Virus record (IMG/VR): IMGVR_UViG_2698536549_000026
Direction: 5' to 3' (one strand)
Source: a virus
Lineage: Duplodnaviria > Heunggongvirae > Uroviricota > Caudoviricetes
Length of the DNA: 31,217 bases
The notes under the pieces were generated by a model that worked only from the letters and a program-made list of their open reading frames with translations, ran no database searches and was not told where the DNA came from. Shown here in pieces: positions 2,928-17,303 of this stretch. The position numbers and the translations under genes are program-made. Position 1 is the stretch's first letter, and each line of letters starts with the position of its first letter.

Positions 2928-3524
2928 TCAGCCTGCGTGATGATCCGGCGAAGGGGATTCAGGCCAGACAATATCCGGCGCGTTGCCCGTGTCTGTCCGG
3001 TTCAGTAATACCCGGTATTTTTTCCACAGGGGAAGCAGGGCGCTTTCATCGTCGGTCGCCATATTTAAATCCACGGCATCCTGGAGGATGTTTATTGTAT
3101 TTGTTGCTTCCTGTATTAATTCCCGTTTTTTATTCTCCGCCTCGCTCACCCGGTAAGCCTGTTCTGCTGCTTCATCCTTAACCCATGATGAACCATCCCA
3201 CCGGCAGAACTCCCCGTCCGGTTTTATTTCTGTCACGTTTTCCGGCAACGGTCCCGGCCCGGAAATGAATAAGGCAGCCCCCGAGTCCAGACGCCAGACG
3301 GTTTTACCCCGGTGATCTTCCATGAGGTGCCAGGTGTTTTCGTCCTCATCAAAGATAGCCACGTGTCCTTCAGGAATGTCAGGCGGGGCAATGTCCGTTG
3401 AGTGCGCAGGCAGTCCGGTATGCGGAGGGATCCAGGCATCGCCTTCGCCGATAAATTCATTTGTTCCGGCTGACAGGTTGTAGATTTTAATTGTCTGTGG
3501 GTGTTCGCTCATTTTAAAGGTCAT
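2928..3524 (-). CDS. tfa: tail fibre assembly protein (Tfa / P2 gpG-like chaperone)
   Basis: 198 aa. N-terminus [51 protein letters not shown] and C-terminus [29 protein letters not shown] match the conserved Tfa pattern from memory. Start overlaps fibre stop (TAATG). Confidence 0.85.
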
Positions 3525-5584
3525 TATGCAAGCCTCACGATGTAGTTAAATGCGATGTTTTTGACGGTGTTTTCCGCATTACCGGTGGGGTTAATGGTCA
3601 GGCCGTGGCCATGTTGACCCAGTGCGAGCGTGTGGATGTGTTCGCCAATGCTTACCGAATGTGTGTGTTCCGAAACTCTGGCGATCAGGTTCGCCCCGGA
3701 GCCCGGCCCGTATGCGGTCCAGTCAGCGCTGCCTTCCGGTGACGCGGTGGCGGTTCTTAATGATATTATTGCGCTGAACGGCCCCGCGCTGTTTGTTGTT
3801 TTTGTGCCGTAATTGAAGGATGAGGTCGTTTTTGTGCCAAGGTCAGTATTTGAGACGCTCCCTCCGTGGGTGTGCGATTTGATGCCGTCCTGCTCCTGTG
3901 ACAATACCGCACGACCGCTGGCAGGTTTTCCCTTGATTGTCCAGCCACGCATATCCGGGATACGACCATCCGGATAGGCTTTTGCCAGCAGGGGATATCG
4001 TGCTTTATCGAATGCCTGCCCCACCATGATGGCGTAACCGGCAGGCGGGGTGTCTGACGGCCACGGCAGGGGAACGCCTGCGGGTAACAACTCACTTGCA
4101 GGCAGTGCGCCGATGTCCTGTGGTGTGGGTTTGTTTTTGTCCGTGTAAGTGCGGTACCAGATGGTGCTTTTCCCTTTATTTAAAACAACCCCGGTGAACT
4201 GTGTGCGGAGGTACATGTCGGCAGGGTTTGGGCTTTCGAGACCTGTCGTGATCCTGATGATCCCCCCGTTGATGTCGCCTGATACTTCGATAAGGCAGCC
4301 TCCAAGGCAGATATCACCATAGCCCGTATCAGTGAGCACGCTGTGCCGGGAAAGTGAAATATTGGCTTTGAATATCCAGAGTCCTGGTCTGAAGGCGCCA
4401 CGTTCATTCAGCCATTCCACGAATTGTTCTGTTGTCCAGCGTTGCCCTGCTTCACCCACGTACCCGTCTTTTGCATAAACGCGTGGTGCGCCCACGTTGA
4501 TCAGGAACAGCTCCTTGTTGGGGATGTCCTCACCATTGCGGTTTTTCGCAAGCCGACCATCGGCGTTGTCCATGGCGATCTTTATAGCCTTTGGCGTGGC
4601 TGCCTGTGTCTCTGATGTACTGGTGGTGGCGCTGCTTAACTGTGTGAAGCCCTTTTCTTTCAGCGTTGCGTCCGGGTGGTTGCGTGATTTCTCGTGTTTT
4701 TTCAGAGCGTCCAGCCAGCGGCGTTCTTCCGGCGTTCCTCTGGGGCGCAGGTCAGTCACGTTGCCGTCTTCATCAATGTCAGCAAGGGCAAAAAAATATT
4801 GCCGGGCGGCCTCCTTCCTGTGTGCTTCCAGCAGGATCTCTTCCGTGGCGGCGGGGTCGGCCATGATAATATCGTGCTCCACCGTCCATTCACTGGTGAG
4901 CGTACCGGTCCACCATACTGTCAGCCAGATACGGGACGGGAAGTCTGGCGTGGTCAGCGGTATGTCTTCGGTCAGCTCTGCGCGTAATCCCTCCACGTAA
5001 CCGGTCCCTTTGCAGAGTGACCATCTTTCGCCTTTTTTAACCAGCCAGCCGTCCCCAAAGAATGCAGCGTTACCGTAAATATCGATGTTTTCCCGGCGCT
5101 GGCGCTCGTCCATGGCCGCCAGGCGTGCCGTGAAGTCTATCTGCCAGGTCTGCGCCGGGGTGGTGATACCTGTGGCTTCCTTCGCACCGCTGTACTCCAT
5201 GAGCATGGAACGGACCAGCACATTACCTTCGTTACCGTTGTGGGTTCTGATTTTTTTCTGTGTGGGGGCGTGAACAATCATGGCCAGCGTGCTGGTTGCT
5301 TTGCTGACCAGTCCCACCCAGTTAAATTCAAAATCACCCAGCTCTGCCCCCAGGGTGACCGAATAAACCACGGCATTCTCATTCACCACGCCGGTTTTGC
5401 CAACGGCCTGGCGGTGAACAATCTGATCTTCAGGTGGCAGGGTTTCGTCGGGGGATACCGGTGTTTCCGGGTTGAGGTCCGGGACGTTTGCAAAAACAAA
5501 CTCATCCAGCACAACGGGGGTGCCTTCCGCCGCCTGCTGTGCCTTGAGCCGGATAAAGGCGCTGGTAATTACAGATTTCGCCAT
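3524..5584 (-). CDS. tail fibre protein, lambda Stf / P2 gpH-like
   Basis: 686 aa. Contains [40 protein letters not shown] (conserved fibre collar motif) and a C-terminal receptor-binding region [31 protein letters not shown] ... [18 protein letters not shown] typical of Stf/gp37-like fibres. Confidence 0.9.
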
Positions 5585-7332: not shown

Positions 7333-7660
7333 AGTTCACCCTGGTGTTTATGCGTCCAAAATCCTGTGTCTCTGCCGTCACATGCAGCCTGCCCGGTGCC
7401 TCTTCGTTAATGAACACCGTCCCCGGAACCAGCCGTTCATCATCCTCAACCAGGAGGATAAGCCGGGTAATGATGTCGCTGCGCAGCGTCGGGCTGCGTT
7501 CGCCGATAAGCAGGGCGGCGATCCCGCTTTCGATAATGCTGTGCACCACGTCCTGGCCGATGCTGACCCGGTTATCACATCGCTGTGGCTCGTTTCCGCT
7601 GTTCAGCGTAAAACTGCCGTCAGTGATAAGCAGGTCGATGTAAAGCGATGGCGTGTTCAT
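7310..7660 (-). CDS. small baseplate protein (gpW/gp46-like), hypothetical
   Basis: ORF track gives 7310..7681. An in-frame ATG at 7660 forms an ATGA overlap with the tape measure stop, giving about 116 aa. Position immediately after tape measure. Confidence 0.45.
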   Translation of the reverse strand: MNTPSLYIDLLITDGSFTLNSGNEPQRCDNRVSIGQDVVHSIIESGIAALLIGERSPTLRSDIITRLILLVEDDERLVPGTVFINEEAPGRLHVTAETQDFGRINTRVNYERETGR

Positions 7661-9843
7661 CCCGCGTAAAGCTCCGTCCATTCATCCAGTTGCCCCGGCG
7701 TCATCGGGTTCTGCGTGTTGATTGTCAGATTGCCGAACGTCCGGCTGTTGTCGATACGGGTTGAGGTGTCCGTGCGTATCTGGTTGCGTATGCCTCCGGG
7801 TGGCAGCTCTGCGCTGATGCGGTTGCCTGCCAGTGCCGGGACGGCGGTTTCTGCAATCTGCGGAGGTACGGTGCTGCCTGTTGCGCCCCGCGTCATGGTG
7901 TTCACCTGCTCCGTGGGCTTCATGTCGATACTGATACCGGGGATTTTGTTCAGCTTTTCCGCAAGCCAGTTCCACGTCCGGTTAAACGAGTTTTTAATGA
8001 CGTTCCATAAGTCCCCGAAGACGTTACCGATGATCCCCGCCATTTTCCGGAAGGATTCGACCGGGGCGGTCGGGTCAAATGCAGCCACCACGTCCTGCCA
8101 CCCTCTGATGACGATGGCGAAGATGTCGATCAGGGTTCTGATCACGCTGATAACCACCTCCAGCGCGGGGGATATCAGGCTTACCGCTGCGGCCACCACG
8201 CGACCGCATGTTTCCCCGGCACGGGTGACGCTGTTCATCTGTCCCGTGGTCAGCTGTACCGGTGCAAACAGATCGGAGAAGGCACTGAACAGGGTTTTTA
8301 TGCCCTGCCATACCGGGGCCAGCGCCCGGGCAATGTCACCGAACGCGGCAGTCACCGGGCTCATGGCGTCCAGTGCGCTGGTAAAACCATCAATAAAGCC
8401 GCGAATAAAGGCTTTGATGGGCTGCCAGAACTTAATGGCCACCACCACCAGAGCAGCGATGGCGGCGGCAACCAGGAGGACCGGGGCGCTCATGGTCAGA
8501 AACGACACGCCCGCCAGACGCGCGGCAAGACTGGTGGCAATGATGGCACTGCGTACTTTTGTGAGTGCAAGCGTGTACAGACTCCAGGCTGCCCTGGCGC
8601 CCTTTATGATGGCCTTATGGCCTTCCATGATGAAGCTGAACACACCCAGCACGATGTTCGTGACCGCACCGGCTGCGCCCAGCGCCAGCATGGTCAGCGT
8701 GATGTAACCCAGCCAGCGGGCGATGTTCGGGAACATGTTCAGCCAGCGCACGAACGTCGCGCCGATATCGGCAAAACGGCCAGCCAGTGGTGCGAGAATG
8801 GGGTAGAGGGCGTTACCGATGGCGGCCCGGATGTTGTAGAAGGAGGCCACAAGGCGGTCCCACGGGTCGGTCATGGCTTCCGCCATTTCCGTGGCACGCT
8901 TCATGCCGTCATTACGCCCCAGCGCTGATATGCTCCGGTTAAGCATTTCCTGCTGTCCCCAGAGTTTTTTAATCACGTCCGCGCCACTGCCGAAGGCGTC
9001 ATCCAGCGCCTGTTGTGCCGCCACGTTACCCTCAATGTTCCTGCCGAACCTCGCCTGCAGACGGTCGAGGATGTCACCCATGGGTAAAATCTTCCCGGTG
9101 GCATCGACAAAACTCATCCCCATTTTTTGTGCGGCAGCGGGGGCACTGCGCAGGAATTCCTCATAGATGCCCGATGCCTCGGTGCCCATGGTCCGTGACA
9201 GGGTGCCCAGTATGGCAAACTGCTCTGCCATGCTGACGCCAAAATCCGCGCCCGCGTTTTTGGTGCCCTCAATAAGCTCCTGCATGGTGCTCATTTCCAC
9301 GCCGAACTGCTGAACCATCCACGCGGTTTTACCTGCCAGATCTTCAGCAAACCCCACGGCACCCATGGCAGAAAACTCACTGCGGAAACGGGCACCCATG
9401 GCGGCAAGGTAGCCGCTCGCCTCTTCGCTGCTGACGCGGGCAGCCACGGCCAGGGTGCTGGTTGCTGCCGTCACACGGGGTAAATCCCCGTCGCTCAGTC
9501 CGTCCAGTGCGCCGCGAATATGCCATGCGGAACGGATGATCTCCGTGGAAGACTGACCGAATGCGGTCCCCAGTTTCATGGCCTGCGTGGTGAGGGCGGT
9601 CAGCGCCTGCGCCCCGACGCCTTTGGCCTCAAGCTCGCCCAGCGCCTTCTGCATCTCCCACGCCGGATCCATCGCGGCGCGGATACCTTCGGCCACGCCC
9701 CACAGTCCGGCCACACCCACACCGATACGCGCGAACGCGCCCTGCGAGCGTTCGGCGAATCCCGTCACGGATTCCTGAACCTGCCGCAGCGGGCGGGTAA
9801 GCTGGTCTGTCAGATTGATAATGAAATCCAGCTGGCTGGCCAT
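7657..9843 (-). CDS. tail tape measure protein
   Basis: 728 aa, Ala/Gly-rich with a long predicted helical N-terminal part and hydrophobic segments (e.g. ITLTMLALGAAGAVTNIVLGVFSFI). Directly downstream of the frameshifted chaperone. Confidence 0.85.
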   Translation of the reverse strand: MASQLDFIINLTDQLTRPLRQVQESVTGFAERSQGAFARIGVGVAGLWGVAEGIRAAMDPAWEMQKALGELEAKGVGAQALTALTTQAMKLGTAFGQSSTEIIRSAWHIRGALDGLSDGDLPRVTAATSTLAVAARVSSEEASGYLAAMGARFRSEFSAMGAVGFAEDLAGKTAWMVQQFGVEMSTMQELIEGTKNAGADFGVSMAEQFAILGTLSRTMGTEASGIYEEFLRSAPAAAQKMGMSFVDATGKILPMGDILDRLQARFGRNIEGNVAAQQALDDAFGSGADVIKKLWGQQEMLNRSISALGRNDGMKRATEMAEAMTDPWDRLVASFYNIRAAIGNALYPILAPLAGRFADIGATFVRWLNMFPNIARWLGYITLTMLALGAAGAVTNIVLGVFSFIMEGHKAIIKGARAAWSLYTLALTKVRSAIIATSLAARLAGVSFLTMSAPVLLVAAAIAALVVVAIKFWQPIKAFIRGFIDGFTSALDAMSPVTAAFGDIARALAPVWQGIKTLFSAFSDLFAPVQLTTGQMNSVTRAGETCGRVVAAAVSLISPALEVVISVIRTLIDIFAIVIRGWQDVVAAFDPTAPVESFRKMAGIIGNVFGDLWNVIKNSFNRTWNWLAEKLNKIPGISIDMKPTEQVNTMTRGATGSTVPPQIAETAVPALAGNRISAELPPGGIRNQIRTDTSTRIDNSRTFGNLTINTQNPMTPGQLDEWTELYAG

Positions 9844-9844
9844 G

Positions 9845-10308
9845 TCACCTTCCGTTAAATGCGATCGCTATACCTTCAGCGGTCTTGTTGGCGCGGGTAC
9901 GGGCAAAATATTCATCCAGCCAGATGGCACGGGCGATGCTCTCTTCGTCGTCCGGCTCTCCGGGGAGGTAGTGACGCCGCAATGCCAGATACTGCTCAAG
10001 GGGATTGCGGCGGATGCTTTCGACCCGCGCGGTCAGTTTTTTAACTCAATCTCCAGTTTCGGGGAGTAAACCTCGTTAATCTTCTCGACGATCTGCATCT
10101 CACAGCCCGGATAACGCGCAATCAGGTCAGCCAGTGCGTCGCGGCTGGCAGGCGTCACGATGCGGTTAAGATAGGTGCTCATCGGCGCCACCTTGTTGGT
10201 CATCGTGATTTCGTTGATGAGGTTGTTAAATGCCGTTTTGTTCGGTTCAAAGCTCAGGGTTACGCCCGCAACGGACAGGATGATGGTGCCGGTGTTCTTC
10301 GTGGTCAT
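9845..10308 (-). CDS. tail assembly chaperone, predicted -1 frameshift fusion product (GT / E' analogue)
   Basis: After a -1 slip at A_AAA_AAC (10036-10042) the new frame reads 63 sense codons (LTARVESIRRNPLEQYLALRRHYLPGEPDDEESIARAIWLDEYFARTRANKTAEGIAIAFNGR) to TGA at 9845-9847, overlapping the tape measure ATG (9841-9843). The open frame fills the gap exactly. Confidence 0.6.
10033..10308 (-). CDS. tail assembly chaperone, zero-frame product (lambda G / P2 gpE analogue)
   Basis: 91-aa ORF ending ...EIELKN-stop, directly upstream of tape measure. Final codons TTA AAA AAC TGA contain a canonical slippery heptamer. Confidence 0.7.
   Translation of the reverse strand: MTTKNTGTIILSVAGVTLSFEPNKTAFNNLINEITMTNKVAPMSTYLNRIVTPASRDALADLIARYPGCEMQIVEKINEVYSPKLEIELKN
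10036..10042 (-). other. programmed -1 ribosomal frameshift slippery heptamer A_AAA_AAC
   Basis: Minus-strand sequence GAG TTA AAA AAC TGA at the end of the chaperone ORF. X_XXY_YYZ heptamer in the correct register. Confidence 0.6.
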
Positions 10309-10598
10309 TGCAGTTTCTCCGTGTTTCGTATGGTTTCCACCAGGCTGTTATGCCTGGCGGCGCATTCGGTGTAGCGGCTCGTGAGGGTTCGCAGTGCCGC
10401 ATCAAAATCAGCGCCCGTCGGGCCTGCCAGTCTCGGCAGTGTCTTCGGGCATTCCGTCAGCTGGTTTTCCTGCCAGGGTACGCTCAGCGGCTTCAGCACG
10501 GGCGTTGAACAGCCGGACGTAATCATCAGTAGCGCACACATTGCGGAATACCGGGCGGACGGTTTCCGTGTGAATAACGCGTTCAGTGTGAATTTCAT
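10305..10598 (-). CDS. o-spanin (Rz1-like outer-membrane lipoprotein), embedded in the i-spanin gene in another frame
   Basis: Translation contains MCALLMITSGC (signal peptide plus lipobox-like TSGC) followed by a Pro-rich region. Overlaps 10408-10598 of the Rz-like gene out of frame. Start may be the internal ATG at 10541. Confidence 0.55.
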   Translation of the reverse strand: MKFTLNALFTRKPSARYSAMCALLMITSGCSTPVLKPLSVPWQENQLTECPKTLPRLAGPTGADFDAALRTLTSRYTECAARHNSLVETIRNTEKLQ

Positions 10599-10794
10599 TG
10601 CCCTTTAACGCCTCCAGCCGTTTTTCCAGTATGCGGGCGGACTGCTGCCCGGCTTCTGTTACCGCACGTCGCGTGGCTTCCATGGCTTCCTGTTCGGCAA
10701 GCGCCACCCTGGCGTCATGCCAGTCATGGGCCAGCCAGCCCGCCCACATGGCGGCAAAGAGGATCACCAGGCAGCCCGCCACCTGTTTCATCAT
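10408..10794 (-). CDS. i-spanin (Rz-like)
   Basis: 128 aa with N-terminal TM segment (VAGCLVILFAAMWAGWLA) and charged, helical periplasmic part. Immediately downstream of the endolysin with ATGA overlap. Confidence 0.6.
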   Translation of the reverse strand: MMKQVAGCLVILFAAMWAGWLAHDWHDARVALAEQEAMEATRRAVTEAGQQSARILEKRLEALKGNEIHTERVIHTETVRPVFRNVCATDDYVRLFNARAEAAERTLAGKPADGMPEDTAETGRPDGR

Positions 10795-11129
10795 TTCACC
10801 CCGTTGTGCTCAAGGCTGAAATGATTGCCGTCTGCCCGGCTGAAGCGTCCGCCCCATGTGCCGCCGATGGATTCCCAGTATTCCCCCAGCGGCCTGTAGG
10901 CGTCGGTATCGGCCTGGTATTCGCCGTTAATGAACAGGTTGAAGTCCACCGCGAGGCGCAGCGTGTGAAGGCTGTTGCGAATGCCTTTTCCGCTTTTCGC
11001 ATTCAGTGCGGCCTGCTCCGGCGTGCGGTATGCCTCGCCGAAGGTCAGGCGATAGCCGTGCTCCTGTGCCCAGTGGATGAGATCGGCAATCATGACGGCA
11101 AACAGTTGTTGTTTTTCGCTCAGTTTCAT
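10791..11129 (-). CDS. endolysin, peptidase M15-type (L-alanyl-D-glutamate peptidase-like)
   Basis: 112 aa, MKLSEKQQLFAVMIADLIHWAQEHGYRLTFGEAYRTPEQAALNAKSGKGIRNSLHTLRLAVDFNLF...GGRFSRADGNHFSLEH. Matches the small M15 endolysin pattern (H...D...H metal ligands) from memory. Confidence 0.75.
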   Translation of the reverse strand: MKLSEKQQLFAVMIADLIHWAQEHGYRLTFGEAYRTPEQAALNAKSGKGIRNSLHTLRLAVDFNLFINGEYQADTDAYRPLGEYWESIGGTWGGRFSRADGNHFSLEHNGVK

Positions 11130-11881
11130 CAGTCACTCCTCTGTTCCGTCCCCGTAAGACGCGCCTGTGCCACGCTGAAATAGTGGGCGTTCAGTTCAAT
11201 ACCCGTAAAACGGCAGCCCCGGCGAAGGGCGGCCACGCCCGTGGTGCCGGACCCCATAAACGGATCGAGGATCAGCCCTCCGGGTTCACACACGCGCACA
11301 AGCTCATCCATCAACGATTCCGGTTTACCTGTCGGGTGCTGTTTCTCCTGTGGGCGTGTGTGGTGCGTGATGCAGCCGTCGAACGGCCCGGAAGGGGATT
11401 TGCCCAGCGCGCCTTTACTGCCCCAGACCACATATTCGCACTGGTGACGAAAATAACCGGTATGCGGTGTTCTTGAGGCCCGTCCCTTGTTCCATGCCAC
11501 GATCCCCCGCCAGTTAAAGCCGGCGGCCTGGAATGCGTCCGTCAGCGCGGGCAACTGCCGCCAGTCGGTGAAGACCAGGGCGTAACCACCGGGTCGTACC
11601 GTGCGCCATGCCTGTGTCATCCACAGATGCGTCCAGTATTCCCATGAACGGGCGTCCATGTTCTCGCCTTCGAAGCCTTCAAAGCGGTGAAGATCTTCAT
11701 CGTTGATGTATTTGGCGTGGCTGCCCTGGCATGTCCGCCCCGCCTTGTGTGTGGCACCTGAACTGTATGGCGGGTCTGTGATGAGCGCGTCCACACTGTT
11801 TTCCGGCAGCATCCGCAGAACGTCATGCGCCTGCGCGTGATACAGGCTCAGGGAAGGCGAAATGTAAGGCTTATGGGTCAT
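11129..11881 (-). CDS. DNA methyltransferase, beta-class amino-MTase (N6-adenine or N4-cytosine)
   Basis: 250 aa. Catalytic DPPY motif near N-terminus (ALITDPPYSS), AdoMet-binding FxGxG motif near C-terminus (LDPFMGSGTTGVAA). Motif IV before motif I indicates the beta permutation. No adjacent restriction endonuclease gene. Confidence 0.85.
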   Translation of the reverse strand: MTHKPYISPSLSLYHAQAHDVLRMLPENSVDALITDPPYSSGATHKAGRTCQGSHAKYINDEDLHRFEGFEGENMDARSWEYWTHLWMTQAWRTVRPGGYALVFTDWRQLPALTDAFQAAGFNWRGIVAWNKGRASRTPHTGYFRHQCEYVVWGSKGALGKSPSGPFDGCITHHTRPQEKQHPTGKPESLMDELVRVCEPGGLILDPFMGSGTTGVAALRRGCRFTGIELNAHYFSVAQARLTGTEQRSD

Positions 11882-12176
11882 TTCTGCGTTCCTTCTGCTT
11901 CAGGTAGCGGTCTGCCAGACGGCAAAAGCATTCTTCAATAAAGGCGCTGCCCATAATGCCCAGCGCGCACGCCAGACCGACCACTACCAGCTCCGGCATG
12001 TCCGGAAATTTAAACAGCGGAATGGCGGCAACCGGTGCCACGGCAGAGCCCATAATCATTCGCCCGATAAGCAGACGGGCTGTGATGCGATCGCGGCTCA
12101 CCATGAGACGCCCCAGCCCGATGGCAGCACCGATGATAATCAGTTTTGCCAGGAGTGAAGTCTGACCGTCCGGCAT
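11871..12176 (-). CDS. putative holin (three predicted TM segments)
   Basis: 101 aa with hydrophobic stretches LLAKLIIIGAAIGLGRLMV, IMGSAVAPVAAIPLF, LVVVGLACALGIMGSAFI and a charged C-terminus. First gene of the lysis cluster. Confidence 0.55.
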   Translation of the reverse strand: MPDGQTSLLAKLIIIGAAIGLGRLMVSRDRITARLLIGRMIMGSAVAPVAAIPLFKFPDMPELVVVGLACALGIMGSAFIEECFCRLADRYLKQKERRNDP

Positions 12177-13800: not shown

Positions 13801-14511
13801 TTATCTGATATCCTGTGCGTCAACGTCCAGGCCGTAGCCCATTGCGTTCATCTGGCGTGCCAGGATGTGTGAAAATTCTTCGTTTGTTACCCCCAGAAAG
13901 ACGCGCGACGGAAGGGTAATGGTCCATGTCCGGGCCTTCTGCTGGCGTGGTCCGGCGATAATCTGATCTTCCATAATGGTGATCAGCAACCCGGCCTGCG
14001 CCCGCGAAAGCGTTAACAGGTATTTCATGGATGCTTTCCGCCAGCGCCCCTTCTGACGTACCTTAAAGCCCAGCTCCCGCAGTCGTTTTGCCTGTCGGCG
14101 GGTGGCGGTCTGCCCGCTCTGGTCCTGACCGCTGAAGCTGTCAGCACTGACCCGGATTTCTGCGCCGTTGTGGTGAACCCAGCCCACGGCACCGGCACTG
14201 ATGCGGCTCCTGCCACTGGTGTGATTGCCGTTACGGAAATAAACCTTTACGGCATCCTGTCCGGGCATCTCACGGACCGCCAGAAGACGCGGCAGCTTTC
14301 TGAACATTTTCCCCTTACCGCGTTTCCTGGGTGCCCATGCTGTACCGTCCGGTGCGGCCTGATCGCGCTGATGGCGTCTGGCAGCGGCGATAATGCCGTG
14401 CCGGGCAATACGCCATAACAGGCGACGGCGTTTTTTTGGTGGCAGATCCAGCGACTGAAGCATCGCCTGCGCTTCTGCCAGCTGCTGCGGGTTCAGCTGG
14501 CCGCTTATCAT
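13801..14511 (-). CDS. tail completion / virion morphogenesis protein (P2 gpS-like position)
   Basis: 236 aa, basic. Start ATG overlaps the stop of the gpR-like gene (ATGA at 14508-14511). Confidence 0.4.
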   Translation of the reverse strand: MISGQLNPQQLAEAQAMLQSLDLPPKKRRRLLWRIARHGIIAAARRHQRDQAAPDGTAWAPRKRGKGKMFRKLPRLLAVREMPGQDAVKVYFRNGNHTSGRSRISAGAVGWVHHNGAEIRVSADSFSGQDQSGQTATRRQAKRLRELGFKVRQKGRWRKASMKYLLTLSRAQAGLLITIMEDQIIAGPRQQKARTWTITLPSRVFLGVTNEEFSHILARQMNAMGYGLDVDAQDIR

Positions 14512-16274: not shown

Positions 16275-17303
16275 TTATGCGCCGCCAGGTGCGGGCTCTT
16301 CTGCCGCTTCTGCGCCCTTGATGGTCAGCTTGTCGTAGGCCGCGTAAATTTCGTCGTGCTCCACGGCGTAACCTTCCATGCGCAGATAGTTGTTTTCAAA
16401 ACGCTTGCGATCGTCGTTCCACTCCGCACGGCGCTGACGGGTGCCGCGCTGCGTGTAGATGTGAAGGTTTGCCAGCGTGGTGACAATCAGGCGTCCTTCC
16501 GGCATGAACGGCGGGGTGTATGCTGTCAGCCCGGCGATCTGGCGACCGATAAGCTGCGCGGCCACTTTTTCCGTGGGGGCGTCGATGGCGTTAAGCAGCG
16601 TCACCTTGTCCTGTGCCACAAGATCGGGCGCAACCAGTACCACCAGATCCGGATGACCGCGATACGACTCATCAATGAGGGTGTGCACGAGGTCTGCCAC
16701 GGCTGCATCCAGCCCGATAAAGTCGCCACCCTTGCCCAGCGTCGGGCCAGCCTCCACGATCTGTTTTGCGCTGCGGCCTTTGACGATGGCATGCCAGCCG
16801 GTGTTGACGTCCTCGCCGTTTTTGTTGGTTACCGGGTCGGTATCTTCGGCCACGCTGGTACCGTTAAAGGCAATGCGCAGGATATCCAGCGCGATCTGTC
16901 TGTTAACAAAATTCTGAATGCGGTTAAAGAACTCGTTTTCACCGCCTGCGTTTGCCCAGGTGACCAGTGTGGTGTACAGGAGGTGGGCACCGGAATCGGT
17001 TTCAGCCAGCTTGTATTCATTCCCGGTAACACCCAGCGGAAGGGTGAAGCGGGCATTTTTTTTACGTCCGGTATGGAGGCCCGGAACGCCGGTGGTAACC
17101 ACCTGGCCTGTCACCTGTTCAACATCCAGCACGTTCGGCAGTTTTGATAAAAACTCGTCGGAGTGCATGATGGCGTCACGCAGCGCGGTCTCCTTCGGGT
17201 CAGACAGCGCAAAATAGCGTGTGACGTCGTCAACCCCGTTTGCCGCACCCAGCCCGGCAGCGTACTTACGAAGCAGTGATTCGGTTTTCTGGTTCAGTTG
17301 CAT
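16275..17303 (-). CDS. N: major capsid protein, P2 gpN family
   Basis: 342 aa. Region GKGGDFIGLDAAVADLVHTLIDESYRGHPDLVVLVAPDLVAQDK... matches the conserved P2 gpN core (GKGGDYASLDALV...DPDLVVIVGRQLLADK). Confidence 0.9.
   Translation of the reverse strand: MQLNQKTESLLRKYAAGLGAANGVDDVTRYFALSDPKETALRDAIMHSDEFLSKLPNVLDVEQVTGQVVTTGVPGLHTGRKKNARFTLPLGVTGNEYKLAETDSGAHLLYTTLVTWANAGGENEFFNRIQNFVNRQIALDILRIAFNGTSVAEDTDPVTNKNGEDVNTGWHAIVKGRSAKQIVEAGPTLGKGGDFIGLDAAVADLVHTLIDESYRGHPDLVVLVAPDLVAQDKVTLLNAIDAPTEKVAAQLIGRQIAGLTAYTPPFMPEGRLIVTTLANLHIYTQRGTRQRRAEWNDDRKRFENNYLRMEGYAVEHDEIYAAYDKLTIKGAEAAEEPAPGGA

What the first reader, a model, noticed from the sequence alone, without database searches (positions are those of the whole stretch)
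9845..10308. Programmed -1 frameshift in the tail assembly chaperone, with the extension exactly filling the gap to the tape measure gene
The 91-aa chaperone ORF ends TTA AAA AAC TGA, i.e. heptamer A_AAA_AAC in register. The -1 frame downstream is open for 63 codons and stops at a TGA overlapping the tape measure ATG. This is the conserved G/GT (lambda) or E/E' (P2) arrangement and explains the otherwise gene-free 190 bp. The spurious plus-strand ORF 9815..10069 covers the same DNA.
Basis: partly seen in the sequence, partly recalled or inferred. Interest (0 to 1): 0.45.

Follow-up and report, generated by a model that had tools for sequence, protein, structure and literature searches.

The report
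Tail chaperone −1 frameshift, HP1-type prophage
An E. coli prophage makes a longer version of its small tail-assembly helper protein when a few ribosomes slip back one base at A-AAA-AAC just before the stop codon; this is the ordinary, well-known phage trick, but databases record the extension as a separate protein of unknown function (DUF6890).

Summary
On the minus strand, a 91-aa ORF (10308..10033; Pfam Phage_TAC_10, E 7e-30) ends GAG TTA AAA AAC TGA. The heptamer A_AAA_AAC (10042..10036) is in register and directly abuts the stop. The −1 frame opens one codon upstream and runs to TGA 9847..9845. That TGA lies 1 nt before the tape-measure ATG (9843); it does not overlap it.

The extension is a real protein domain (Pfam DUF6890, E 3e-20). 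In 14 diverse phages (HP1, K139, phiO18P, F108, SI7 and others), 80 bacterial genomes and 68 distinct viral contigs, every locus has AAAAAA[C/A] followed at once by a zero-frame stop. Every locus also has a 61–66-codon −1 extension that ends close to the tape-measure start where one was found (51 nt at most). Extension conservation starts at the slip site. Substitutions concentrate at third positions of the −1 frame. No conserved start codon exists.

The interpretation as a G/GT-type (λ) or E/E+E′-type (P2) programmed −1 frameshift is supported. There is no detectable sequence homology to P2 E+E′. No 3′ RNA structure is conserved, and the window's own fold is not significant.

This is a new, unannotated member of a well-known kind, of modest interest. 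Its main value is correcting annotation: DUF6890 is the "T" domain.

The parts
10033..10308 (-). Tail assembly chaperone gene ('G', 91 aa), the zero-frame product. It ends ...LEIELKN-TGA.
10036..10042 (-). Slippery heptamer A_AAA_AAC, in register (P-site AAA Lys, A-site AAC Asn).
   Evidence: AAAAAA[C/A] sits at the same place in 14/14 phages, 80/80 genome loci and 68/68 distinct viral loci. The wobble A of the preceding V/L/I codon and the AAA Lys codon are invariant in 93/93 sequences. The last codon is never AAG or AAT.
10033..10035 (-). Zero-frame stop TGA, immediately 3' of the heptamer. It is a possible 'shifty stop' stimulator.
   Evidence: A stop follows the heptamer with 0 intervening codons in all 162 loci, and all three stop codons are used. 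A stimulatory role is an inference.
9848..10039 (-). -1 frame extension ('T' part), 64 codons: (K/N)LTARVESIRRNPLEQYLALRRHYLPGEPDDEESIARAIWLDEYFARTRANKTAEGIAIAFNGR.
   Evidence: It aligns without gaps from its first residue across 14 phages. There is a third-position excess of substitutions in this frame, both upstream and downstream of the PGAP start.
9851..9982 (-). Pfam DUF6890 match inside the extension. It coincides with the 45-aa 'DUF6890 family protein' that PGAP calls from TTG 9982.
   Evidence: PF21830, E 2.7e-20, fusion residues 110-153. RefSeq annotation WP_001252557. Database members are 45-63 aa with inconsistent starts and none is fused.
9845..9847 (-). Stop codon (TGA) of the -1 frame, 1 nt upstream of the tape-measure ATG.
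   Evidence: In relatives with a detectable TMP start, the -1 stop lies from an 11-nt overlap to 51 nt before that start, mostly a 4-nt or 1-nt overlap or a 1-nt spacer.
9845..10308 (-). Whole span of the predicted frameshift fusion protein GT (154 aa).
   Evidence: Assembled. tblastn with the fusion gives two-frame hits covering at least 80% of it in 67/67 phage records.
9845..9853 (-). GGAAGGTGA: probable ribosome-binding site of the tape measure gene, embedded in the last codons of the extension.
   Evidence: Read from the sequence. Inference only.
7657..9843 (-). Tape measure protein gene (728 aa), the presumed client of the chaperone.
   Evidence: Pfam PhageMin_Tail, E 1.5e-11. PGAP 'phage tail tape measure protein'.
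9975..10035 (-). Predicted local hairpins 3' of the slip site (10035..10021 and 10012..9975). Not significant in this sequence.
   Evidence: strand folding z = -0.85. The 60-nt window gives z = -0.72. RNAalifold finds no consensus structure over 93 relatives.

Best explanation
This is a programmed -1 ribosomal frameshift in the tail assembly chaperone gene of an HP1-like (Peduoviridae) E. coli prophage.

Most ribosomes translate the 91-aa chaperone and terminate at TGA 10035..10033. A minority slip back one base on A_AAA_AAC (10042..10036). They then continue in the -1 frame for 63 more codons and terminate 1 nt before the tape-measure ATG. The result is a 154-aa fusion, 'GT', made of Phage_TAC_10 plus DUF6890.

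By analogy with lambda G/GT and P2 E/E+E', both proteins would coat the tape measure protein through the shared N-terminal part. The rarer C-terminal DUF6890 part would recruit the tail tube (and possibly sheath) subunits, and neither protein would end up in the virion.

Shown here: the anatomy, its register, its invariance in 162 related loci, protein-level selection on the -1 frame starting at the slip site, and the absence of independent initiation signals.

Inferred: that slippage actually occurs, its efficiency, the roles of the two products, and the exact slip mode. Two modes give junction ...K-N-L...: a tandem P/A-site slip, or a slip of peptidyl-tRNA-Asn while the adjacent stop occupies the A site. 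A P-site-only slip before Asn decoding would give ...K-K-L.... The invariant abutting stop makes a stop-assisted ('shifty stop') contribution plausible.
For: Sequence anatomy.

Pfam: the fusion carries Phage_TAC_10 (6.9e-30) plus DUF6890 (2.7e-20), and the neighbouring gene is a tape measure.

Identity of the element: it is 100% identical to a prophage region in E. coli JNEC-KY174 and is present in 12 complete E. coli genomes at 96.8-100% identity, so it is not a sequencing error.

Phage records: tblastn with the fusion gives two-frame hits covering at least 80% of the query in 67/67 records.

Conservation of the site:
- 14/14 diverse phages (down to about 33% protein identity) have A_AAA_AAC or A_AAA_AAA in register, 0 codons from the stop, and a 61-65-aa extension.
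- 80/80 loci from the genome collection (one genome per species; a few genomes contributed two loci), found through the T domain alone, show the same. 79/80 have a Phage_TAC_10-like zero-frame ORF upstream; the remaining one is cut by a contig end.
- 68/68 distinct viral contigs show the same.

Nucleotide-level selection: the wobble A before the run is present in 93/93, the Lys codon is AAA in 93/93, and the last codon is never AAG or AAT.

Protein-level selection: the extension aligns gaplessly from residue 1. The ratio of third-position to first/second-position substitutions is 1.5 in the 18 codons upstream of the PGAP start and 1.8 downstream, against 0.6-0.9 in the other two frames. Window versus SI7 gives 20 synonymous and 10 non-synonymous codon changes in the -1 frame, against 2:29 and 3:28 in the other frames.

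No independent start: no position carries a start-type codon in more than 21/94 loci. 31/94 loci have none in the first 25 codons, and 88/94 have none with an SD-like motif.

Literature: G-T frameshifting is widely conserved in long-tailed dsDNA phages. A_AAA_AAC is a weak shift site in E. coli compared with A_AAA_AAG, which suits a low GT:G ratio (PMC5009743).
Against: There is no experimental evidence of the fusion protein. No record among the 14 examined annotates a frameshift, and all database DUF6890 proteins are stand-alone 45-63-aa calls.

No conserved downstream stimulatory structure exists (RNAalifold returned nothing). The window's own 3' region folds no better than shuffles (z -0.7 to -0.85). 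No Rfam frameshift element matches. An upstream SD-like GGAG in the window is not conserved in relatives.

A_AAA_AAC is reported to be much less shifty than A_AAA_AAG in E. coli (PMC5009743), so efficiency may be low.

The loci are phylogenetically related, so the counts overstate the number of independent observations.
Confidence: 0.88

Rival explanations
1. Transcriptional slippage. RNA polymerase adds one extra A in the A6 run, so a fraction of the mRNAs encode the same G-T fusion in a single frame.
For: The site is a homopolymeric A run. An extra A would place the same -1 ORF in frame. The protein product would be nearly identical (K-K-L junction).
Against: The run is exactly 6 A (followed by C) or 7 A (preceded by T, followed by T) in all 162 loci, and never longer. 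From established knowledge (Wagner 1990; Baranov 2005; recalled, not re-read here), productive bacterial slippage generally needs runs of about 8-9 or more. The strict X_XXY_YYZ register with the reading frame and the invariant abutting stop codon are irrelevant to RNA polymerase but are conserved.
Confidence: 0.06
2. DUF6890 is an independent small gene, as RefSeq/PGAP annotates it (45 aa from TTG 9982). It would be translated from its own start, with no frameshift.
For: PGAP and several phage records call it as a separate CDS. Pfam and PHROGs hold it as a stand-alone family.
Against: Annotated starts are inconsistent: 45, 47, 48, 57, 59 and 63 aa, including a CTG start. No start-type codon is conserved at any position, 31/94 loci have none in the first 25 codons, and 88/94 have none with an SD-like motif. 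The window has only TTG at codon 20, without an SD. Protein conservation and the synonymous substitution pattern extend through the 19 codons upstream of that TTG, right up to the heptamer. The -1 frame is closed just upstream of the heptamer (1 codon in the window; 2-12 codons, counted with the slip codon, in most relatives).
Confidence: 0.03
3. Termination-reinitiation. Ribosomes terminate at the chaperone stop and restart at the overlapping CUG (C-UGA), producing a separate 63-aa T peptide.
For: The CUG codon overlaps the UGA stop in the window, a geometry like AUGA coupling. One database entry uses exactly this start (P0051).
Against: In most relatives the corresponding -1 codon is CUA or AUA (stops TAA/TAG: 59/80 genome loci, 17/68 viral loci, 10/14 phages). 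These are not initiation codons. This model would place no selection on the six preceding A's, yet they are invariant.
Confidence: 0.02
4. Chance open frame. The 189 nt are a non-coding spacer and the heptamer is coincidental.
For: About 4.5% of -1-frame positions in this GC-rich window are followed by at least 64 open codons. AAAAAAC occurs 11 times in the window.
Against: The Pfam DUF6890 hit at E 2.7e-20. Coding-type substitution pattern. Conservation in 162 loci across more than 20 gammaproteobacterial genera.
Confidence: 0.01

Closest known systems
Bacteriophage lambda G / GT tail assembly chaperones (Levin, Hendrix & Casjens 1993; Xu, Hendrix & Duda 2004, 2013, 2014)
   Same: A small chaperone ORF sits immediately upstream of the tape measure gene. 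An in-register slippery heptamer lies near its 3' end, and the -1 extension lacks its own start. The extension ends at the tape measure gene. A low-efficiency shift is expected to set a G:GT ratio (PMC5009743).
   Different: The heptamer is A_AAA_AAC rather than G_GGA_AAG. Here the stop codon abuts the heptamer. The phage is a contractile-tailed HP1-like myophage. The tube gene and chaperone gene are separated by the lysis cassette. The Pfam families differ. The function of the two products was not tested here.
Bacteriophage P2 E / E+E' (Christie et al. 2002; annotated in NC_001895)
   Same: Same virus family (Peduoviridae). E is also 91 aa. The -1 extension runs to the start of the tape measure gene T, overlapping it by 8 nt in P2. 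Each half has its own Pfam family: Phage_TAC_7 plus Phage_P2_GpE in P2, Phage_TAC_10 plus DUF6890 here.
   Different: The P2 slip site is T_TTT_TTG, 6 codons before the E stop, not abutting it. The P2 extension is 51 aa against 63 aa here. There is no detectable sequence homology (hhalign probability 0.14%, E 0.43). In P2 the chaperone directly follows the tube gene FII.
Haemophilus phage HP1 orf26 / gap / orf27, and relatives (HP2, K139, Kappa, F108, phiO18P, ESSI-2, SI7/SW3/SW5, vB_YenM_324)
   Same: These are true homologues. They have the same two Pfam domains, the same heptamer (A_AAA_AAC or A_AAA_AAA) abutting the stop, a 61-65-aa extension, and the same gene order of lysis genes, chaperone, tape measure.
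   Different: Protein identity is only 33-78%. The window carries an extra DNA methyltransferase gene in the lysis cassette. None of the records examined annotates the frameshift. Whether Xu et al. 2004 listed HP1 could not be checked, because the paper is not held.
IS1 insA-insB' and dnaX -1 frameshift sites (A_AAA_AAC / A_AAA_AAG)
   Same: The same class of A-rich heptamer, decoded by tRNA-Lys (and tRNA-Asn). That IS1 uses A6C is recalled from Sekine et al. 1992, which is cited only as a reference title.
   Different: dnaX uses a defined upstream SD and a downstream stem-loop. No conserved counterpart was found here. The gene products are unrelated.

Membership tests
G/GT-type tail assembly chaperone frameshift (lambda paradigm) | Chaperone ORF immediately upstream of the tape measure gene in the tail module | tested here: met
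   Phage_TAC_10 ORF 10308..10033 and PhageMin_Tail ORF 9843..7657. Sheath and tube genes lie upstream, but the lysis genes separate them from the chaperone.
G/GT-type tail assembly chaperone frameshift (lambda paradigm) | In-register slippery sequence X_XXY_YYZ in the short overlap between the two frames | tested here: met
   A_AAA_AAC at 10042..10036. The -1 frame opens one codon upstream. The site is invariant in 162 loci.
G/GT-type tail assembly chaperone frameshift (lambda paradigm) | Downstream ORF lacks its own initiation signals yet is conserved as protein | tested here: met
   (no conserved start or SD). (protein-level conservation from the slip site; DUF6890 E 2.7e-20).
G/GT-type tail assembly chaperone frameshift (lambda paradigm) | Fusion protein actually produced at a low fixed ratio and required for tail assembly | not testable with these tools
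   This needs proteomics, reporter assays and genetics.
Pfam Phage_TAC_10 (PF10963) | Score above the gathering threshold (25.7 bits) | tested here: met
   103.5 bits, E 6.9e-30, profile positions 2-82 of 82.
Pfam DUF6890 (PF21830) | Score above the gathering threshold (23.6 bits) | tested here: met
   72.3 bits, E 2.7e-20, profile positions 1-44 of 44, in the -1 frame extension.
P2 E/E+E' family (Phage_TAC_7 + Phage_P2_GpE) | Sequence homology to P2 gpE / gpE+E' | tested here: not met
   hhalign of the 14-member GT alignment against P2 E+E' gives probability 0.14%, E 0.43. P2 hits different Pfam families. The resemblance is one of architecture only.
Tail assembly chaperone fold (e.g. HK97 TAC, PDB 2ob9) | Structural similarity of the G part to a solved TAC | tested here: inconclusive
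dnaX/IS3-type stimulated -1 frameshift sites | Conserved upstream SD-like element and/or downstream stem-loop or pseudoknot at 5-9 nt | tested here: inconclusive
   There is no consensus structure and no Rfam match. The window gives z -0.7 to -0.85. Across the family, however, the 60 nt 3' of the heptamer fold better than shuffles (mean z -1.5, 35% below -2, against -0.6 to 0.0 in five control windows). Positions 15-26 are paired with P 0.7-0.84, but to varying partners.
Transcriptional slippage sites | Homopolymer run of about 8-9 or more A/T | tested here: not met
   The run length is 6 or 7 in all loci.

The most novel reading that the evidence does not exclude
In this HP1-type chaperone family, the stop codon that always abuts the heptamer would itself be the frameshift stimulator (a -1 'shifty stop'). 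It would take the place of a conserved RNA structure. Peptidyl-tRNA-Asn/Lys would slip from AAC/AAA to AAA while the A site waits for a release factor. The G:GT ratio would then be set by competition between termination and slippage, and would shift with release-factor activity or the host's physiological state.
Probability: 0.3. Interest if true: 0.45.

Novelty: new member of a known kind. Interest (0 to 1): 0.3.

Why it matters
The biology is textbook: nearly all long-tailed phages make a frameshift-extended tail chaperone. The practical value is in annotation.

RefSeq/PGAP, Pfam (DUF6890) and PHROGs (phrog_7050, 'unknown function') all treat the extension as a separate small protein of unknown function. 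All 14 phage records examined leave it unjoined. The comparative data here assign DUF6890 as the 'T/E′-like' frameshift domain of Phage_TAC_10 chaperones throughout the HP1-like Peduoviridae.

The data also reveal a very rigid recoding signal: six A's plus C or A, then a stop, and never the shiftier AAG. That makes a clean natural system for asking whether an abutting stop codon tunes −1 frameshifting.

Tried and rejected
- The search for related loci with the 14-member G alignment failed because no stretch was conserved enough. The T-domain alignment worked instead.
- The key papers could not be read (Christie 2002, Xu 2004). Whether HP1 was already listed as a frameshift case is therefore unverified.
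- Literature searches for DUF6890, Phage_TAC_10 and HP1/K139 plus frameshift found nothing.
- Rfam scan of 9600..10400 at E ≤ 1 gave no match.
- RNAalifold on 93 in-register sequences gave no consensus structure.
- The upstream GGAG in the window, considered as a dnaX-like SD stimulator, is not conserved.
- Homology to P2 E+E′ by hhalign was rejected.
- NCBIfam has no model for either part.
The single-sequence fusion model is too poor to use (pLDDT 54).
- The search for naturally in-frame G–T fusions or annotated fusion proteins found none. All G hits are 89–91 aa and all T hits are 47–63 aa.

Full report
**Observation.** All genes in this part of the window run on the minus strand.

- The 91-aa ORF 10308..10033 ends GAG TTA AAA AAC TGA.
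- The heptamer A_AAA_AAC occupies 10042..10036 in X_XXY_YYZ register, with Lys AAA in the P site and Asn AAC in the A site.
- The zero-frame stop TGA (10035..10033) follows with no intervening codon.
- The −1 frame has a stop one codon before the heptamer. It is then open for 64 codons (10039..9848) and ends at TGA 9847..9845.
- The tape-measure ORF (728 aa) starts at ATG 9843.

The −1 stop and the ATG are therefore separated by one base (TGAcATG).

From this sequence alone the arrangement is unusual but not overwhelming. In 25 putative genes of the window, 4.5% of −1-frame positions are followed by at least 64 open codons. There are 26 in-register X_XXY_YYZ heptamers in 7876 codons. Only this one sits at a gene end in front of a long open −1 frame.

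**What the pieces are.** A conceptual fusion across the slip site hits two Pfam families above their thresholds:

- Phage_TAC_10 (tail assembly chaperone, E 6.9e-30, residues 10–91);
- DUF6890 (E 2.7e-20, residues 110–153), which lies in the −1 frame extension.

The downstream gene is a tape measure (PhageMin_Tail). Upstream lie an Rz1/LysC-like ORF, an i-spanin-like ORF, an M15 endolysin, a DNA methyltransferase, a holin, an HP1_Orf24 tube protein and a DUF2586 sheath.

The region is 100% identical to a prophage in E. coli JNEC-KY174. It occurs in 12 of 5426 complete E. coli genomes at 96.8–100% identity, so the frame relation is not a sequencing error. PGAP annotates a 'putative phage tail assembly chaperone' and, separately, a 45-aa 'DUF6890 family protein' starting at TTG 9982. 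The nearest named phages are Salmonella phages SI7/SW3/SW5 (Peduoviridae, Irrigatiovirus, about 74% nucleotide identity).

**Comparative test.** tblastn with the fusion gave two-piece (two-frame) hits covering at least 80% of the query in 67 of 67 phage records. These include HP1, HP2, K139, Kappa, F108, phiO18P, ESSI-2, vB_YenM_324 and many Vibrio phages.

I fetched 13 diverse records, and none annotates a frameshift. They either leave a gap of about 190 bp or call a small 'hypothetical protein' with varying starts. Including the window, all 14 loci share the same layout, with protein identity down to about 33%:

- the chaperone ORF ends …(V/L)-K-(N/K)-stop;
- A_AAA_AAC or A_AAA_AAA is in register, exactly 0 codons from the stop;
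- the −1 frame continues for 61–65 codons;
- it ends between a 4-nt overlap and 30 nt before the tape-measure start.

A scan of the genome collection (one genome per species), using only the T-domain alignment, returned 80 loci from more than 20 gammaproteobacterial genera.

- All 80 have AAAAAAC (73) or AAAAAAA (7), followed at once by a zero-frame stop (TAA 48, TGA 21, TAG 11).
- Their extensions are 61–66 codons long.
- 79 of 80 have a Phage_TAC_10-like ORF upstream in the zero frame. The remaining locus is cut by a contig end.

A viral-contig scan added 68 distinct loci, all with AAAAAAC plus an abutting stop.

At the nucleotide level:

- the wobble position of the V/L/I codon before the run is A in 93 of 93 sequences;
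- the Lys codon is always AAA;
- the last codon is never AAG or AAT.

That is selection on the RNA sequence itself, beyond what the amino acids require.

**The extension is translated from the slip site, not from its own start.**

- The 14 extensions align without a single gap from their first residue, following K(L/I)xxRVxAIExNxLEQxLALRRHYLP…ARAIWLD….
- Summed over 91 pairs, substitutions pile up at third positions of the −1 frame. This holds in the 18 codons upstream of the PGAP start (ratio 1.5) and downstream of it (1.8). The ratio is 0.6–0.9 in the other two frames.
- Window versus SI7 shows 20 synonymous and 10 non-synonymous codon changes in the −1 frame, against 2:29 and 3:28 in the other frames.
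- The variable sites fall on first codon positions of the plus-strand ORF 9815..10069, which is therefore spurious.
- No extension codon position carries ATG/GTG/TTG in more than 21 of 94 loci. 31 of 94 have no start-type codon in the first 25 codons, and 88 of 94 have none with an SD-like motif.
- The window has only TTG at codon 20, without an SD.
- Database 'DUF6890 family proteins' are 45–63 aa with arbitrary starts, one of them at the CTG right after the heptamer. None is fused.
- Reinitiation at the codon overlapping the stop is excluded as a general mechanism, because that codon is CUA or AUA in most relatives.

**Stimulators.**

- Rfam finds nothing.
- The window's 3′ region folds no better than shuffles (z −0.85 for 98 nt; z −0.72 for 60 nt).
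- RNAalifold finds no consensus over 93 in-register sequences.
- The GGAG 8 nt upstream of the heptamer in the window is not conserved.

There is, however, a family-level tendency. The 60 nt after the heptamer have mean z −1.5, with 35% of loci below −2. Five control windows in the same loci give means of −0.6 to 0.0, with 0–8% below −2. Positions 15–26 from the heptamer start, about 8 nt after it, are paired with probability 0.7–0.84. Their partners vary, and the best mean pair probability is only 0.23.

This suggests lineage-specific hairpins at canonical spacing, but it is not proof, and the window itself is a weak case. The only invariant flanking feature is the abutting stop codon. All three stop codons occur, which argues for 'any stop here' rather than a specific sequence.

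A stop is needed in any case, because zero-frame read-through would add about 55 residues in the window. Whether its position is mechanistically required therefore remains an inference. 'Shifty stops' are an established concept (Weiss et al. 1987, cited in PMC5009743). In P2, by contrast, the stop lies 6 codons after the slip site.

**Mechanism proposed.** The most likely mechanism is −1 ribosomal frameshifting on A_AAA_AAC, giving a 154-aa GT fusion alongside an excess of the 91-aa G.

Two modes predict the junction K-N-L: a tandem slip (tRNA-Lys AAA→AAA, tRNA-Asn AAC→AAA), or a slip of peptidyl-tRNA-Asn with the stop in the A site. A P-site slip before Asn decoding, or transcriptional slippage, predicts K-K-L.

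A_AAA_AAC is reported as far less shift-prone than A_AAA_AAG in E. coli (PMC5009743). That fits the low GT:G ratios known for λ (about 1:30) and P2 (2- to 3-fold higher in that review; about 10% as I recall from Christie 2002). The complete avoidance of AAG in the family is consistent with selection for a low ratio. Transcriptional slippage is unlikely because the run is never longer than 7.

The roles of the products are inferred from λ (PMC5009743), not tested. G and the G part of GT would bind the tape measure, and the DUF6890 part would recruit tube subunits.

**Comparison with known systems.** The arrangement works like λ G/GT and P2 E/E+E′.

P2's record annotates E (91 aa) and E+E′ (142 aa). 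The slip is at T_TTT_TTG, and the extension runs into the T gene. Its halves are Phage_TAC_7 and Phage_P2_GpE.

Profile comparison finds no homology with the present family (probability 0.14%). This is therefore not a member of the P2 E family but a parallel one, Phage_TAC_10 plus DUF6890. Its type phage is HP1 (orf26, gap, orf27).

**Verdict.** The kind of element is well known. This family's frameshift is unannotated in every record and library I examined. I could not check whether the 2002/2004 papers already listed HP1.

Interest is modest. The useful outcomes are that DUF6890 / phrog_7050 is explained as the frameshift 'T' domain, and that a strikingly rigid signal (A6[C/A] plus stop, never AAG) has been documented and could be used to test stop-assisted −1 frameshifting.

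Noticed in passing
window 11129-11881 (-): A 250-aa N6/N4 DNA methyltransferase gene (Pfam N6_N4_Mtase, E 7e-28) sits between the holin (12176..11871) and the M15 endolysin (11129..10791). In the related Salmonella phage SI7 the holin and endolysin are adjacent. This looks like a moron-type insertion inside the lysis cassette.
   Followed up: partly
window 10305-10598 (-): A 97-aa ORF overlaps the 3' half of the i-spanin-like ORF 10794..10408 in another frame. It has a weak Rz1-like LysC Pfam hit (E 9.5e-4, below threshold) and a Cys-containing signal-like segment (…LLMITSGCS…). This is probably an overlapped o-spanin that PGAP does not annotate. Its TGA overlaps the chaperone ATG (ATGA), which suggests translational coupling.
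   Followed up: partly
related loci L001-L175, 60 nt 3' of the heptamer: Across 94 loci the 60 nt following the slip site fold better than dinucleotide shuffles (mean z -1.5; 35% below -2). Five control windows in the same loci do not. Positions 15-26 are usually paired, but with different partners in different lineages, and no consensus structure emerges. These may be lineage-specific stimulatory hairpins. Phylogenetic non-independence was not corrected for.
   Followed up: partly
window, whole; e.g. 14430-14437 (-), 3524-5584 (-), 16275-17303 (-): AAAAAAC occurs 11 times in the window against 5.1 expected (0 of 100 shuffles reach 11). Other in-register homopolymeric heptamers exist inside genes: A_AAA_AAA near the start of the 236-aa Phage_tail_S-like gene, T_TTT_TTT in the 686-aa gene and A_AAA_AAT in the 342-aa gene. 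None was examined for an open alternative frame.
   Followed up: no
L080, L082 (genome contigs): Two contigs labelled as Bacillota/Bacillales MAGs carry this otherwise gammaproteobacterial HP1-type chaperone module with the same heptamer. This is likely binning contamination rather than host range.
   Followed up: no
protein database entries P0051-P0065; RefSeq WP_001252557: Gene callers give the DUF6890 ORF at least six different lengths (45, 47, 48, 57, 59 and 63 aa), including one that starts at the CTG directly after the heptamer. The Pfam model (44 positions) covers only the C-terminal two thirds of the conserved 61-66-aa extension.
   Followed up: yes
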